From assembly GCF_003019035.1 (NCBI RefSeq), contig NZ_CP027447.1: DNA of 64,000 bases. One strand, given 5' to 3'. Both the position numbers and the translations under genes were made by a program. Shown here one piece after another: positions 360 to 55,861 of this stretch. The DNA comes from Escherichia coli (GTDB taxonomy: Bacteria > Pseudomonadota > Gammaproteobacteria > Enterobacterales > Enterobacteriaceae). Numbering within the stretch: position 1 is the first letter of the stretch; each line of letters begins with the position of its first letter. The notes under the pieces were generated by a model, which worked only from the letters and a program-made list of their open reading frames with translations, was not told the DNA's origin and made no database searches.

Positions 360-399
360 CACGCTACCGCCCCTGGCTTAACAGCTACCAGAGCACTGC
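360..399 (-). promoter_or_regulatory. JUMPStart element with ops site (GGCGGTAGCGTG on minus strand) in the leader of the O-antigen operon
   Basis: Plus strand reads cacgctaccgcc at 360-371, the reverse complement of the ops 12-mer; it lies upstream of the rfbB start on the minus strand. Confidence 0.7.
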
Positions 400-9999: not shown

Positions 10000-10099
10000 G
10001 TCGTTACCCTTTTTCAGGCAATAGTTGGCCCTGACCGAAACGGCCAATTTTGTTTTTTCGTTATTTACCGGAGAATTAATCCGGTTGATTATTCAACGG

Positions 10100-24438: not shown

Positions 24439-24478
24439 CACGCTACCGCCCCTGGCTTTTTAGCTACCAATACACTGA
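24439..24478 (-). promoter_or_regulatory. JUMPStart/ops element in the wza (cps operon) leader
   Basis: Plus strand cacgctaccgcc at 24439-24450 is the reverse complement of ops GGCGGTAGCGTG; flanks nearly identical to the copy at 360-399. Confidence 0.75.
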
Positions 24479-39138: not shown

Positions 39139-39900
39139 TCATTCTGTCCACATAGCCAGTGCTAACGTTTTATCATCATCGGTACGCTCGTTTACCGCTG
39201 GGCTGGACAAAAACTGCTTTAACAATTCAGGTAATAAATCGAGTTGTTCCTGCGTTGCTGACGCCAGTCCATTGAAAAACGGGGTAAAGAAAGGCACATG
39301 CGGAGAATTATCCAGCATATTTAACGCCAGTCTCTGAATACCATCCGTAAATGCTGCAACTCTATGCGCACGCTCAGTGCTGGTGAAAGTTTCCAGTCTG
39401 AAAACGGCATCTTCATCGGTAATGAAATGCGTCATGTTGGCATATTCACCCACCATCGGCGTGAGAGGCAATTGCAGACCGTGACCCAAATCTACCACCA
39501 CGCCGCCATCGCCAATCTGCATAATCAAGGTGCCGTCAGGCGATGAAATCAGTCCCAGAAATGTGCAGGCAAAATCGCGAACCGCTAATTCTTTGGCTTC
39601 CGCCTCGGCAAAAAGTCGCTGACGAACGGTCAGCACAATATCCGTTGCGAGGACATCATTAAGCCCCAATTCCCCGCCCTGCACTTTTTGCATCATATAA
39701 GCCATCGCTTCATTGACGGCAAGCGTCGCACCTTCGCCACCCTGCGAAACGCTGCCTGCGCCATCAGCGACAAATACCGTCAATAATGGCTGCTGGTCTT
39801 CTAGCCAGGCAACCTGCATCTGGCAGGCATCCTGGCAAGGCAAGTCCGCGCTGATGTGCGACGTTCCAACGGTTGATGCATAGACCAGACGCCAGCTCAC
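39139..39900 (-). CDS. yegK: PP2C-family Ser/Thr protein phosphatase YegK (PphC)
   Basis: 253-aa ORF with PP2C-like DGAGS motif; overlaps yegL by 4 nt. Confidence 0.88.
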
Positions 39901-40556
39901 ACTGACGTCCAGCCTTTTGGCGCTTCCAGCACAACTTCCGTTCCCGGCGTGGAGCGGGAAACCGAACGCAGCGAACTGGATAACCAGCTAAATAGTTCGC
40001 GGAATTGTAATCCTTGAAGAGGCAAAGGCTGACGAACGCTGATTTGGGCCAGCGTCTTCATATCCGCCCCCTGAACACCGATGGAAAAGAAGGCAAACTT
40101 CTTATCTTCTTCCCCCTGAAACACCTTGTTGGCAGCAGCCTGCCACTCATCGGTTGGTGCGCCATCGGTAATCAGGAAAATCCACGGACGATAATAGGAA
40201 ATACCATTGGCGCGATACTCACGTTTGCGCTCCTCAACCATATTCAGGGCTTTGGTAATGGCGGCGCCCATTGGTGTATCCCCATGGGCAAACAGGATGG
40301 GCGGGAAAAAATTAGCGGCGCTGGTAAAGGGTTGTTCCACATGCACTGGGCCGAACGTCACAATACCGAGTTCCACTCTTTTTAAGGCCAGCGGGTCGGC
40401 AAGCAGCTCATCGCGAAAGGTAACCAATCCGGCGTTAAGTTCATTAATGGGTCTACCGTTCATAGAACCAGAAACATCCAGCAGCAAAATGCAGGGGCAA
40501 CGTGGTTCCGGGTTACTGGCAAAATCGCTGGTGGCAAACGTGATTTGTTCGCTCAT
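39897..40556 (-). CDS. yegL: von Willebrand factor A (vWA) domain protein YegL
   Basis: 219-aa ORF; MIDAS motif [11 protein letters not shown]. Confidence 0.88.
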
Positions 40557-40736
40557 AAGAAATCCTTTCTTAGAGAATTATTGAGGTCCGGTATCATACC
40601 GATTGCAATAATGAAATAAGAGCAAACGAAGAAACTTTCAGAATTAGGCCCGGCGGCGCAGAAAATTTTGCTATTCGCCTCGCAAGAACGGAGAGCCGTC
40701 GATTGACACTAAGGGCGGAGTGACATAATTTCAGGA

Positions 40737-40886
40737 GTGAGGGTTAGGGAGAGGTTTCCCCCTCCCCCTGGTGTTCTTAGTAAGCCTGGAAGCTAATCAC
40801 TAAGAGTATCACCAGTATGATGACGTGCTTCATCATAACCCTTTCCTTATTAAAAGCCCTCTTCTCCGGGAGAGGGTTTCCCGTTT
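40737..40886 (+). ncRNA. sibA: Sib antisense sRNA (type I antitoxin), copy 1; ends approximate
   Basis: -35 ttgaca (40703-40708), 17-bp spacer, -10 taattt (40726-40731); intrinsic terminator gccctcttctccgggagagggtttcccgtttc ending ~40886; fully antisense to ibs ORF. Confidence 0.6.
40777..40836 (-). CDS. ibsA: Type I toxin IbsA-like, 19 aa (MMKHVIILVILLVISFQAY)
   Basis: Reverse-complement translation; SD aaggaaag upstream; differs from remembered K-12 IbsA by one residue (P17Q). Confidence 0.8.
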   Translation of the reverse strand: MMKHVIILVILLVISFQAY

Positions 40887-41071
40887 CAGCGTCCCGCTGA
40901 AATCGTCGGCTTACCTCCTTTCGCCCTGAATGCAGTCTATCGCTAACGCGTGAACAAAATAGTTTCCTCTGTGATTATTCCGTAACGACTCGCAAAGAAT
41001 ATTTGCTGGCAGGATCGCAGACTACAAAGCCTGCGGATTGACAATCTTATCGTGAAGGCATAATTTCAGGA

Positions 41072-41214
41072 GTGAGGGTAGAGCGGGGTTTCCCCCGCCC
41101 TGGTAGTCTTAGTAAGCGGGGAAGCTTATGACTAAGAGCACCACGATGATGAGTATCTTCATCATGACCCTTTCCTTATTTATGGCCCCTTCCTCGGGAG
41201 GGGCTTTCCCGTTT
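41072..41214 (+). ncRNA. sibB: Sib antisense sRNA, copy 2; ends approximate
   Basis: -35 ttgaca 41038-41043, -10 taattt 41061-41066; terminator hairpin ggcccctcctcgggaggggc + ttcccgtttc (41184-41214). Confidence 0.6.
41109..41165 (-). CDS. ibsB: Type I toxin IbsB-like, 18 aa (MMKILIIVVLLVISFPAY)
   Basis: Reverse-complement translation with SD; hydrophobic Ibs-family peptide. Confidence 0.8.
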   Translation of the reverse strand: MMKILIIVVLLVISFPAY

Positions 41215-41399
41215 CAGCGTCCCGCTGAAATCGTCGGCTTACCTCCTTCTGTCCTGTATGCAGTCTATCGCTGACTTGCGGATAAAATAGTTTCCAATGT
41301 GATTATTGCGTAACGTCTCGCAAAGAATATTTGCTGGCAGGATCGCAGACTGCAAAGCCTGCAGATTGACAATATTATCGTGAAGGCATACTTTCAGGA

Positions 41400-41543
41400 G
41401 TGAGGGTAGAGCGGGGTTTCCCCCGCCCTGGTAGTCTTAGTAAGCCGGGAAGCTTATGACTAAGAGCACCACGATGATGATCCACTTCATCATGACCCTT
41501 TCCTTATTTAAGGCCCCTTCCTCGGGAGGGGCTTTCCCGTTTC
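41400..41543 (+). ncRNA. Sib antisense sRNA, copy 3; ends approximate
   Basis: -35 ttgaca 41366-41371, -10 tacttt 41389-41394; terminator hairpin 41512-41543. Confidence 0.55.
41437..41493 (-). CDS. Type I toxin Ibs-family, third copy, 18 aa (MMKWIIIVVLLVISFPAY)
   Basis: Reverse-complement translation; same frame/SD as copy 2 but with Trp at position 4. Confidence 0.7.
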   Translation of the reverse strand: MMKWIIIVVLLVISFPAY

Positions 41544-41700
41544 AGCGTCCCGCTGAAATCGTCGGCCTACCTCCTTTTGCCCTGAATGCAGTCTATCGCT
41601 AACGCGTAGATAAAATAGTTTCCTGTGTTATTACTGGATGCGTGCTCGCAAATGTGCCCGCCATTCAGACGATTCCCGATAGTGTTTCATAATTCCTCCA

Positions 41701-41771: not shown

Positions 41772-43019
41772 ATGAAAGGCAGTTATAAATCCCGTTGGGT
41801 AATCGTAATCGTGGTGGTTATCGCCGCCATCGCCGCATTCTGGTTCTGGCAAGGCCGCAATGACTCCCGGAGTGCAGCCCCAGGGGCGACGAAACAAGCG
41901 CAGCAATCGCCAGCGGGTGGTCGCCGTGGTATGCGTTCCGGCCCATTAGCCCCGGTTCAGGCGGCGACCGCCGTAGAACAGGCTGTTCCGCGTTACCTCA
42001 CCGGGCTTGGCACCATTACCGCCGCTAATACTGTTACGGTGCGCAGCCGCGTGGACGGTCAACTGATGGCGTTGCATTTCCAGGAAGGCCAGCAGGTCAA
42101 AGCTGGCGATTTATTGGCAGAAATTGACCCCAGCCAGTTCAAAGTTGCATTAGCACAAGCCCAGGGCCAACTGGCAAAAGATAAAGCCACGCTTGCCAAC
42201 GCCCGCCGTGACCTGGCGCGTTATCAACAACTGGCAAAAACCAATCTCGTATCTCGTCAGGAACTGGATGCCCAACAAGCGCTGGTCAGTGAAACCGAAG
42301 GCACCATTAAGGCTGATGAAGCAAGCGTCGCCAGCGCACAGCTGCAACTCGACTGGAGCCGCATCACCGCACCAGTCGATGGTCGCGTTGGTCTCAAGCA
42401 GGTTGATGTTGGTAACCAAATCTCCAGTGGTGATACCACCGGGATTGTGGTGATCACCCAGACGCATCCTATCGATTTGCTCTTTACCCTGCCGGAAAGC
42501 GATATCGCTACCGTTGTGCAGGCGCAAAAAGCCGGAAAACCGCTGGTTGTTGAAGCCTGGGATCGCACCAACTCGAAGAAATTAAGTGAAGGCACGCTGT
42601 TAAGTCTCGATAACCAAATCGATGCCACTACCGGTACGATTAAAGTGAAAGCACGCTTTAATAATCAGGATGATGCACTGTTTCCCAATCAGTTTGTTAA
42701 CGCGCGTATGTTAGTCGACACCGAACAAAACGCCGTGGTGATCCCCACCGCCGCCCTGCAAATGGGCAATGAAGGCCATTTTGTCTGGGTGCTGAATAGC
42801 GAAAACAAGGTCAGCAAACATCTGGTGACGCCGGGCATTCAGGACAGTCAGAAAGTGGTGATCCGCGCAGGTATTTCTGCAGGCGACCGCGTAGTGACGG
42901 ATGGCATTGATCGTCTGACCGAAGGGGCGAAAGTGGAAGTGGTTGAAGCTCAAAGCGCCACCACTTCGGAAGAGAAAGCCACCAGCCGCGAATACGCGAA
43001 AAAAGGAGCGCGCTCCTGA
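41772..43019 (+). CDS. mdtA: Multidrug efflux RND membrane-fusion protein MdtA
   Basis: Start at [21 protein letters not shown] (415 aa); ORF-track upstream extension rejected. Confidence 0.93.
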
Positions 43020-55533: not shown

Positions 55534-55861
55534 TTCATTTCGATTATTTTTCCCGGATGGAAAATTCTTAGAAACCGATCACATACAGCTGCATTTATTA
55601 AGGTTATCATCCGTTTCGCTGAAAAACATAACCCATAAAATGCTAGCTGTACCAGGAACCACCTCCTTAGCCTGTGTAATCTCCCTTACACGGGCTTATT
55701 TTTTATACATAAGCCGTATCCTGGTAACCGTCTTCCATTGACCACATCGATAGAATCTCCCCTCATAGCACGATGCCTTTCACTTATTGGCATCGTGCTC
55801 GCACAGGTTCCGGTTACGCACAGCCAGAACGCGCATGTTTGACGCTTACCAAAAAATATTC

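What the first reader, a model, noticed from the sequence alone, without database searches (positions are those of the whole stretch)
41437..41493. Third Ibs copy encodes a variant peptide with Trp at position 4 (MMKWIIIVVLLVISFPAY)
Copy 2 reads MMKILIIVVLLVISFPAY, whereas copy 3 has K-W-I. The cognate Sib must stay complementary, so toxin and antitoxin co-vary. An aromatic residue near the N-terminus of such a short membrane peptide could alter toxicity or membrane insertion.
Basis: seen in the sequence. Interest (0 to 1): 0.4.

Follow-up and report, generated by a model that had tools for sequence, protein, structure and literature searches.

The report
Common Trp-4 Ibs toxin paralog
The Trp-containing mini-toxin gene is real, but it is an ordinary, already catalogued member of the E. 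coli Ibs/Sib toxin-antitoxin family, carried by about 42% of complete E. coli genomes, and the Trp sits at the family's most variable position, which mutagenesis of two relatives found dispensable for toxicity.

Summary
**Observation: confirmed.** Window 41493..41437 (minus strand) encodes MMKWIIIVVLLVISFPAY. It is the third of three tandem ibs/sib units between yegL and mdtA.

**Family membership.** The peptide passes Pfam Ibs_toxin. Its antisense strand is a full-length Rfam SIB_RNA match.

**Not an error, not new.**
- RefSeq already holds the protein as WP_012767741.1.
- Its loop allele occurs in 2,264 of 5,426 complete E. coli genomes, including O157:H7, BL21, strain C and Nissle 1917.
- The identical peptide occurs in Escherichia whittamii.
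- It is a separate paralog that K-12 lacks, not a mutated copy 2.

**Where the Trp codon sits.** It lies in the 6-nt loop of the start-codon hairpin, which is Sib P6 and ibs mRNA P4. Position 4 is the most variable position in the family, with 12 residue types in 49 distinct peptides, about a quarter of them His, Phe, Tyr or Trp.

**Published mutagenesis.** N-terminal residues of IbsC were dispensable for toxicity, V5 excepted. Salmonella IbsA stayed toxic with Q4A.

**The "co-variation" claim.** It is automatic, because Sib is transcribed from the opposite strand of the same DNA.

**Small point of interest.** Copies 2 and 3 differ in the Sib transcript only within the three published Sib/ibs contact elements.

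**Verdict:** already known, low interest.

The parts
41437..41493 (-). ibs copy 3 ORF: 18 codons plus stop, encoding MMKWIIIVVLLVISFPAY
   Evidence: Translation. Pfam PF13956 at 41.4 bits, E 1.3e-10. RefSeq CDS WP_012767741.1 in the identical strain SCU-301.
41482..41484 (-). Trp-4 codon TGG, read as CCA on the Sib strand. It is part of the 4-nt block 41481-41484 (TCCA) that differs from copy 2 (GTAT).
   Evidence: Copy 2 versus copy 3 comparison and folds.
41496..41505 (-). Shine-Dalgarno region AAGGAAAGGG of ibs copy 3, 2 nt upstream of the ATG
   Evidence: Read from the sequence. It is unpaired in the predicted ibs mRNA fold.
41402..41537 (+). Sib antitoxin RNA of copy 3 (about 136 nt), fully overlapping the ibs ORF in antisense
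   Evidence: Rfam RF00113 match at 41366-41508. The ends are transferred by alignment from the annotated K-12 SibB. The fold has z = -4.4.
41366..41394 (+). Inferred Sib copy 3 promoter: -35 TTGACA at 41366-41371, a 17-nt spacer, and -10 TACTTT at 41389-41394. Copy 2 has TAATTT at the -10.
   Evidence: Read from the sequence relative to the transferred +1 at 41402. The consensus scan did not call it, so this is an inference.
41474..41493 (+). P6-equivalent hairpin of Sib: stem AUGAUGA/UCAUCAU with loop UCCACU at 41481-41486. The same palindrome forms the start-codon hairpin of ibs mRNA, with loop AGUGGA.
   Evidence: Folds. Identified as P6 through the GCUU/GUCG landmark of Han et al. 2010.
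41443..41465 (+). TRD1-equivalent (P5 loop region). Position 41446 corresponds to SibC G49 and is the only copy 2/copy 3 difference in this element. It is a synonymous Pro codon change.
   Evidence: Mapping from SibC numbering and differences.
41493..41512 (+). TRD2-equivalent (J1/7 region, antisense to the ibs translation-initiation region). Position 41511 differs from copy 2.
41510..41543 (+). Sib terminator hairpin and U-rich tail
   Evidence: Fold.
41038..41180 (+). Sib copy 2 (Rfam match, promoter included), with ibs copy 2 at 41109-41165 on the minus strand encoding MMKILIIVVLLVISFPAY (WP_100792650.1)
40703..40851 (+). SibA (Rfam match, promoter included), with ibsA at 40777-40836 on the minus strand
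39897..40556 (-). yegL, the left flank of the array
41772..43019 (+). mdtA, the right flank of the array

Best explanation
Copy 3 is an intact, ordinary ibs/sib type I toxin-antitoxin unit, one of two to four tandem units between yegL and mdtA in E. coli. By analogy with IbsC and IbsA, the minus strand encodes an 18-aa hydrophobic membrane peptide that arrests growth when over-made. The plus strand encodes a ~136-nt Sib RNA, perfectly complementary because it is read from the same DNA, which pairs with the ibs mRNA and blocks and destabilises it. The Trp arises because codon 4 occupies the 6-nt loop of the hairpin formed by the palindromic start region (AUGAUGA...UCAUCAU). That is the one stretch of the ORF that appears to be constrained neither by RNA stem pairing nor, on published mutagenesis of relatives, by peptide function. 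It is therefore the family's most variable position. TGG-ATC (WI) is one of three discrete loop alleles among Escherichia IbsB-type units, alongside CTA-CTC (LL) and ATA-CTC (IL). Trp-4 is most likely tolerated and not functionally distinctive. What is shown: the sequence, family membership, loop location, population frequency and variability. What is inferred: expression, toxicity, repression, and the neutrality of Trp.
For: Family membership rests on Pfam PF13956, Rfam RF00113 found three times, and the RefSeq 'Ibs family toxin' WP_012767741.1. The WI loop occurs in 2,264 of 5,426 complete genomes, IL in 1,707 and LL in 4,496. The exact peptide is in O157:H7, BL21, E. coli C, Nissle 1917 and E. 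whittamii. Both predicted folds put the Trp codon and its antisense in the 6-nt hairpin loop. Position 4 has entropy 2.98 bits and 12 residue types, against 1.87 bits for the next most variable position. Among 16 in-register IbsB-type Sib sequences, 11 of 16 variable columns lie in the P5 hairpin and P6 loop (Fisher p 4.5e-4), while the ORF antisense between them is invariant in the 16 sequences compared, synonymous sites included. N-terminal IbsC residues are dispensable except V5 (PMC8309996), and the IbsA alanine scan lost activity only with H3A and L11A.
Against: No experiment has tested Trp at position 4. Trp next to Lys-3 would sit at the cytoplasmic membrane interface, where aromatic residues can anchor helices, so a quantitative effect on insertion or potency remains possible. 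The WI allele differs from LL and IL by four consecutive nucleotides, with no intermediates in my sample. Simple drift does not readily explain that. The cross-species variability estimate comes from a pattern scan that fixed codons 1, 2, 6 and 7 and part of codon 5. Invariance at those positions is therefore partly by construction, although positions 8-19 remain a fair comparison.
Confidence: 0.72

Rival explanations
1. The loop allele is maintained by selection at the RNA level. The Sib P6 loop and the complementary ibs mRNA loop form an early kissing contact. Distinct loop alleles (WI versus LL or IL) help each Sib discriminate its own ibs mRNA from those of neighbouring near-identical units. 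On this view Trp is a by-product at the protein level.
For: All six copy 2/copy 3 differences within the Sib transcript fall in the three elements Han et al. 2010 identified: 41446 at the TRD1 discriminator triplet, 41481-41484 in the P6 loop, and 41511 in TRD2. The WI Sib loop pairs 6 of 6 with its own ibs loop but only 2 of 6 with LL or IL. Predicted duplex energy for the loop region is -14.8 kcal/mol cognate against -2.4 non-cognate. Han et al. found that the P6-loop sequence was needed for TRD2 to work in minimal SibC constructs. The WI loop is almost never duplicated within a genome, with 2,268 places in 2,264 genomes.
Against: Han et al. called the P6/P4 loop contact 'non-productive' on its own. 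Many genomes carry two or three units with the same LL loop, 5,625 places in 4,496 genomes. In strain 1916D6 the two LL units differ only in TRD1. So differing P6 loops are not required for units to co-exist. Sib copy 3 keeps perfect complementarity runs of 44, 34, 26 and 26 nt with the copy 2 mRNA, and 85-91% of the cognate TRD1 and TRD2 duplex energy. Han et al. found a contiguous 22-25-bp TRD helix sufficient for repression, so cross-repression is expected anyway.
Confidence: 0.2
2. Trp-4 functionally diversifies the toxin, changing its potency, membrane insertion or target, so that the array encodes peptides with different activities.
For: Trp is a classic membrane-interface residue. Han et al. 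raise the possibility that different Ibs peptides have their own functions. His-3 of Salmonella IbsA, the adjacent position, is required for binding the ATP synthase b subunit, so the N-terminal end is not entirely inert.
Against: Position 4 takes 12 different residues, including P, R, S and Q. Q4A in IbsA stays toxic. N-terminal deletions of IbsC stay toxic. Variation in the neighbouring TRD1 region mixes synonymous and non-synonymous changes, which suggests that variation follows RNA elements and not protein function.
Confidence: 0.07
3. The Trp codon is a sequencing or assembly error, or the copy is a decaying pseudogene.
For: None found.
Against: The identical 81-nt sequence occurs in 1,943 independent complete genomes. 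The ORF, Shine-Dalgarno region, Sib promoter boxes and terminator are intact. Pfam and Rfam scores are above threshold.
Confidence: 0.01

Closest known systems
E. coli K-12 ibsB/sibB (b4668/b4437), the IbsB-type unit next to mdtA
   Same: It has the same 18-aa length, the same locus, the same Sib architecture, and an identical peptide apart from residues 4-5 (MMKLLIIVVLLVISFPAY against MMKWIIIVVLLVISFPAY). The Sib RNA differs at 5-6 of 136 nt.
   Different: The loop block is TCCA instead of GTAG, giving WI instead of LL, and there is one TRD1 nucleotide difference. It is a separate paralog and not an allele of ibsB, since BL21 and E. coli C carry both. K-12 lacks it. K-12's ibsB unit has a copy-2-type head and a terminal-type tail.
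RefSeq WP_012767741.1, 'type I toxin-antitoxin system Ibs family toxin'
   Same: It is the identical protein. It is annotated at this position in strain SCU-301, which is 100% identical to the window, and also in O157:H7, BL21, E. coli C, Nissle 1917 and FDAARGOS_1255.
   Different: Nothing differs. This is the same entity. The array order around it varies between strains.
ibsC/SibC of E. coli K-12, the experimentally characterised pair (Han et al. 2010; Mok et al. 2010)
   Same: It shares the same family and the same hairpin geometry. The TRD1, P6-loop and TRD2 landmarks align column for column.
   Different: IbsC has 19 aa (MMRLVIILIVLLLISFSAY), lies at a different locus (fau-serA), and has different sequences in all three contact elements. 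No experiments exist for the Trp-4 unit itself.
Salmonella Typhimurium IbsA (bioRxiv 10.1101/2025.05.26.656083)
   Same: It is an Ibs-family peptide with a cis-antisense SibA. Its alanine scan gives the closest functional test of position 4 (Q4A remains toxic).
   Different: It has 19 aa, with His-3 where this peptide has Lys-3. Whether its reported target, the ATP synthase a and b subunits, also applies to IbsB-type peptides is untested.

Membership tests
Ibs toxin (Pfam PF13956) | An 18-19-aa hydrophobic peptide matching the Ibs_toxin profile above its gathering score | tested here: met
   41.4 bits against a cutoff of 27, E 1.3e-10, covering profile positions 1-19 of 19. Two upstream non-ORF codons were added only to reach the tool's 20-aa minimum.
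Ibs toxin (Pfam PF13956) | The conserved frame MM[KR]x...S[FYLW]xAY with a hydrophobic core | tested here: met
   M1, M2, K3, the I/V/L core, the invariant Ser and the C-terminal Tyr are all present. Trp falls at the variable position 4.
Ibs toxin (Pfam PF13956) | Over-expression causes growth arrest and membrane depolarisation | not testable with these tools
   Only literature on IbsC and IbsA is available. Nothing exists for this peptide.
Ibs toxin, NCBIfam model | A match to a curated NCBIfam Ibs model | tested here: inconclusive
   no Ibs model matched any of the three peptides, bona fide IbsA included. The scan found no Ibs match even for bona fide IbsA, so the negative result says nothing about membership.
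Sib antitoxin RNA (Rfam RF00113) | A full-length match above the gathering score on the strand opposite the ibs ORF | tested here: met
   141 bits against 56, model positions 1-147 of 147, E 3.9e-30.
Sib antitoxin RNA (Rfam RF00113) | Sib secondary structure: a closing P1 stem, the P5 hairpin (TRD1), the P6 hairpin, single-stranded J1/7 (TRD2) and a terminator | tested here: met
   MFE -65.2 kcal/mol, z = -4.4, with all elements predicted. The landmarks align with annotated SibC and SibB. This is a prediction, not structure probing.
Sib antitoxin RNA (Rfam RF00113) | Sib represses its cognate ibs mRNA | not testable with these tools
   Inferred from perfect cis-complementarity and from Han et al. 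2010.
SIB/QUAD tandem repeat array at yegL-mdtA | Tandem ~330-nt units in the yegL-mdtA intergenic region | tested here: met
   three units with a 328-nt period, flanked by yegL and mdtA. Copy number ranges from 2 to 4 across strains.

The most novel reading that the evidence does not exclude
The start-codon hairpin loop (Sib P6 and ibs mRNA P4) may be a third specificity determinant. Its discrete alleles (LL, IL and WI) would keep otherwise almost identical tandem Sib/ibs pairs from cross-talking. On this reading the family's hypervariable residue 4, including this Trp, is the protein-level footprint of diversifying selection on an RNA kissing loop. The four-nucleotide block change with no intermediates would then be a selected jump between mutually orthogonal loops.
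Probability: 0.15. Interest if true: 0.4.

Novelty: already known. Interest (0 to 1): 0.1.

Why it matters
It matters little. The peptide is already in RefSeq and is present in well-studied strains (O157:H7, BL21, Nissle 1917, E. coli C), but it is absent from K-12, which is where the experimental work on Ibs was done. The one useful point is practical. K-12 under-represents the natural Ibs/Sib repertoire. The naturally occurring near-identical pairs in this window differ only in the TRD1, P6-loop and TRD2 elements, so they would be convenient material for testing how much mismatch is needed to insulate cis-antisense toxin-antitoxin pairs.

Tried and rejected
- **NCBIfam.** There was no Ibs hit for any copy, IbsA included, so the result is uninformative.
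- **First family scans.** Searches failed on my wrong coordinates for copies 1 and 2. They were redone.
- **Literature access.** Fozo et al. 2008, the original Sib/Ibs paper, is not held. The Fozo 2010 supplements with Ibs alignments are not held. A text search for the peptide string found nothing. I therefore cannot say whether the Trp-4 copy has been discussed in print. Mok et al. 2010 was read only through a review.
- **Promoter and terminator scan.** The consensus scan did not call the Sib promoters or terminators. Its thresholds are too strict for TTGACA-17-TA(A/C)TTT, so promoter coordinates are inferred from the transferred +1.
- **Loop inversion.** I considered that the WI loop arose by inversion of an LL, IL or IbsA loop through hairpin template switching. 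The reverse complements (AGCTAC, AGATAC, AGCACG) do not match TCCACT, so I rejected this. This was worked out by hand from the loop sequences.
- **Allele of ibsB.** I considered that copy 3 is an allele of K-12 ibsB. I rejected this because BL21 and E. coli C carry both.

Full report
**1.

The reverse complement of window 41437-41493 reads ATG ATG AAG TGG ATC ATC ATC GTG GTG CTC TTA GTC ATA AGC TTC CCG GCT TAC TAA. This translates to MMKWIIIVVLLVISFPAY*.

The window has three copies in a 328-nt tandem repeat:
- ibsA at 40777-40836 (minus strand), MMKHVIILVILLVISFQAY.
- Copy 2 at 41109-41165 (minus strand), MMKILIIVVLLVISFPAY.
- Copy 3, the finding.

The array lies between yegL and mdtA. Each unit has a full-length Rfam SIB_RNA (RF00113) match on the plus strand, scoring 149.5, 142.6 and 141 bits against a gathering score of 56. 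Each peptide passes Pfam Ibs_toxin PF13956. Copy 3 scores 41.4 bits against a cutoff of 27, E 1.3e-10. So this is a genuine ibs/sib unit and not a chance ORF.

**2. It is neither an error nor new**

- The window is 100% identical to E. coli SCU-301. RefSeq annotates copy 3 there as WP_012767741.1, 'type I toxin-antitoxin system Ibs family toxin'.
- The exact 81-nt segment containing the ORF is present in 1,943 of 5,426 complete E. coli genomes.
- I then used 50-mers centred on the variable block. Every 28-nt megablast seed word in such a query must span the block, which makes each query allele-specific. The counts were:

| Loop allele | Sib-strand block | Genomes (of 5,426) |
|---|---|---|
| WI (Trp-4) | TCCA | 2,264 |
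| IL (as copy 2) | GTAT | 1,707 |
| LL (K-12 ibsB) | GTAG | 4,496, up to three per genome |

- The same protein is annotated in O157:H7, BL21, E. coli C, Nissle 1917 and FDAARGOS_1255. The identical peptide is encoded in Escherichia whittamii.

**3. It is a separate paralog, not a mutated copy 2**

Array content varies with the strain:

| Strain | Units in order (residues 4-5, then residue 15) |
|---|---|
| K-12 | IbsA, LL-F |
| This window | IbsA, IL-F, WI-F |
| O157:H7 | IbsA, WI-F, IL-Y |
| BL21 and E. coli C | IbsA, LL-F, WI-F, IL-Y |
| Nissle 1917 | LL-Y, WI-F |
| N96 | LL-W, IL-L, WI-Y |

I checked the sites that distinguish copy 2 from copy 3. The distal part of each unit follows its position in the array, internal or next to mdtA, and not its loop allele. 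K-12's ibsB unit has a copy-2-type head joined to a terminal-type tail. The arrays are therefore mosaics reshuffled by unequal crossing-over or gene conversion, and K-12 simply lacks the WI unit. The window's particular order is rare. Only 4 records are at least 99% identical over the 1.5-kb locus.

**4. Where the Trp codon sits**

The ibs start region is a palindrome, AUGAUGA-N6-UCAUCAU.
- In the predicted Sib fold (MFE -65.2 kcal/mol, z = -4.4), the stem is 41474-41480 paired with 41487-41493. The loop is UCCACU at 41481-41486.
- In the ibs mRNA fold, the two AUGs lie in the 5' arm of the stem, and the loop is AGUGGA, which contains the whole UGG codon.

I aligned the annotated K-12 SibA, SibB and SibC to the window. 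This reproduces the landmarks of Han et al. 2010 (PMC2943612): G49CU51, C107UCCUUC113, and the P6-loop GUCG at +90. It gives these window coordinates for copy 3:

| Element | Window coordinates |
|---|---|
| Sib +1 | 41402 |
| Sib 3' end | about 41537 |
| TRD1-equivalent | 41443-41465 |
| P6-loop landmark | 41484-41487 |
| TRD2-equivalent | 41493-41512 |

So the Trp antisense lies in P6, and the codon lies in the complementary ibs 'P4' loop.

**5. Position 4 is the family's free position**

A one-genome-per-species scan used a pattern that fixes the hairpin stem and the Shine-Dalgarno complement but leaves the loop open. It returned 58 loci from Escherichia, Citrobacter, Salmonella, Kluyvera, Pseudocitrobacter, Phytobacter, Hafnia and others.

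Together with the E. coli sample, this gave 49 distinct Ibs peptides.
- Position 4 has entropy 2.98 bits and 12 residue types (L, H, F, I, Q, S, R, V, W, Y, M, P).
- The next most variable positions are 17 (1.87 bits) and 16 (1.61 bits).
- H, F, Y or W together account for 13 of the 49, so an aromatic or ring residue at this position is common.

One caveat applies. The pattern fixes codons 1, 2, 6 and 7 and part of codon 5, so their invariance is partly by construction. Positions 8-19 remain a fair comparison.

**6. Published functional data**

- IbsC can be shortened to residues 6-19 and stay toxic. N-terminal deletions are tolerated, V5 excepted. This is Mok et al. 2010 as summarised in PMC8309996.
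- In the Salmonella IbsA alanine scan, only H3A and L11A lost activity, so Q4A stayed toxic. IbsA was reported to act on the ATP synthase a and b subunits (bioRxiv 10.1101/2025.05.26.656083).
- Trp itself has not been tested.

**7. The 'co-variation' claim**

Sib is the antisense transcript of the same DNA, so complementarity to its own ibs is automatic. The meaningful question is discrimination between units.

Within the Sib transcript, copies 2 and 3 differ at only six nucleotides. All six lie in the three contact elements reported by Han et al.:
- 41446, at the TRD1 discriminator triplet. This is a synonymous Pro change.
- 41481-41484, in the P6 loop. This changes IL to WI.
- 41511, inside TRD2.

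Among 16 in-register IbsB-type Sib sequences, 11 of 16 variable columns lie in the P5 hairpin and P6 loop (Fisher p 4.5e-4). The ORF antisense between those elements is invariant in the 16 sequences compared, synonymous sites included.

The WI loop pairs 6 of 6 with its own ibs loop but only 2 of 6 with LL or IL. Loop-region duplex energy is -14.8 kcal/mol cognate against -2.4 non-cognate.

Three results argue against a decisive role for the loop:
- Han et al. found the P6/P4 contact fast but 'non-productive' on its own.
- Many genomes carry two or three LL-loop units. In 1916D6 the two differ only in TRD1.
- Sib copy 3 keeps perfect complementarity runs of 44, 34, 26 and 26 nt to the copy 2 mRNA, and 85-91% of the cognate TRD1 and TRD2 duplex energy. 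Han et al. found a 22-25-bp helix at either TRD sufficient for repression.

I therefore infer that copies 2 and 3 probably cross-repress.

**8. Verdict**

The finding is a correct reading of a known, common Ibs paralog. The Trp occupies the hairpin-loop codon, which appears the least constrained in both the RNA and the peptide. Neutral tolerance is the most likely explanation (about 0.7). RNA-level selection for loop orthogonality is a minority alternative (about 0.2). A Trp-specific change in toxin function is unlikely (below 0.1). Sequencing error is excluded.

Novelty: already known. Interest: low.

Noticed in passing
window 40700-41690; loci L002-L010: The yegL-mdtA ibs/sib array holds 2 to 4 units depending on the strain, and the units are mosaics. 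The distal third of each unit tracks its position in the array (internal or next to mdtA) and not its loop allele. K-12's ibsB unit looks like a copy-2-type head joined to a terminal-type tail. The window's order (IbsA, IL-F, WI-F) is rare, with only 4 records at least 99% identical over 1.5 kb.
   Followed up: partly
L006 675-731 and L010 1338-1394; also L026 and L038: A second aromatic polymorphism lies at the other end of the peptide. Residue 15 is F, Y, W or L (for example MMKLLIIVVLLVISWPAY). It is encoded in the TRD1/P5-loop region of Sib, and synonymous changes occur alongside it.
   Followed up: partly
window 41391 (compare 41063 in copy 2): The inferred -10 hexamer of the copy 3 Sib promoter reads TACTTT, whereas copy 2 has TAATTT (A to C). 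I did not examine whether this changes antitoxin output.
   Followed up: no
L006 1331-1384: In strain N96, RefSeq annotates the WI-type copy as 54 nt (WP_224219350.1), apparently starting at the second ATG. The same ORF read from the first ATG gives 18 aa. Start-site annotation of these twin-ATG ORFs is inconsistent.
   Followed up: no
E. coli genome searches: A few IbsB-type loop-allele matches lie on plasmids: 2 places for WI, 2 for IL and 1 for LL. This is unexpected for a chromosomal intergenic repeat.
   Followed up: no
window 55616-55701 (+): CyaR/RyeE sRNA, Rfam RF00112, 100.7 bits.
   Followed up: no
window 360-398 (-), 24439-24477 (-) and 10004-10053 (-): Two JUMPstart elements (RF01707) and an 'algC RNA' match (RF02929). 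These may mark polysaccharide gene clusters upstream in the window; I did not examine the surrounding genes.
   Followed up: no
window 41481-41484 compared with 41153-41156: The WI loop allele differs from the IL and LL alleles at four consecutive nucleotides, with no intermediates among 19 distinct IbsB-type sequences (16 of them used for the in-register column test). It is not the reverse complement of any other loop in the sample. Its origin is unexplained.
   Followed up: partly
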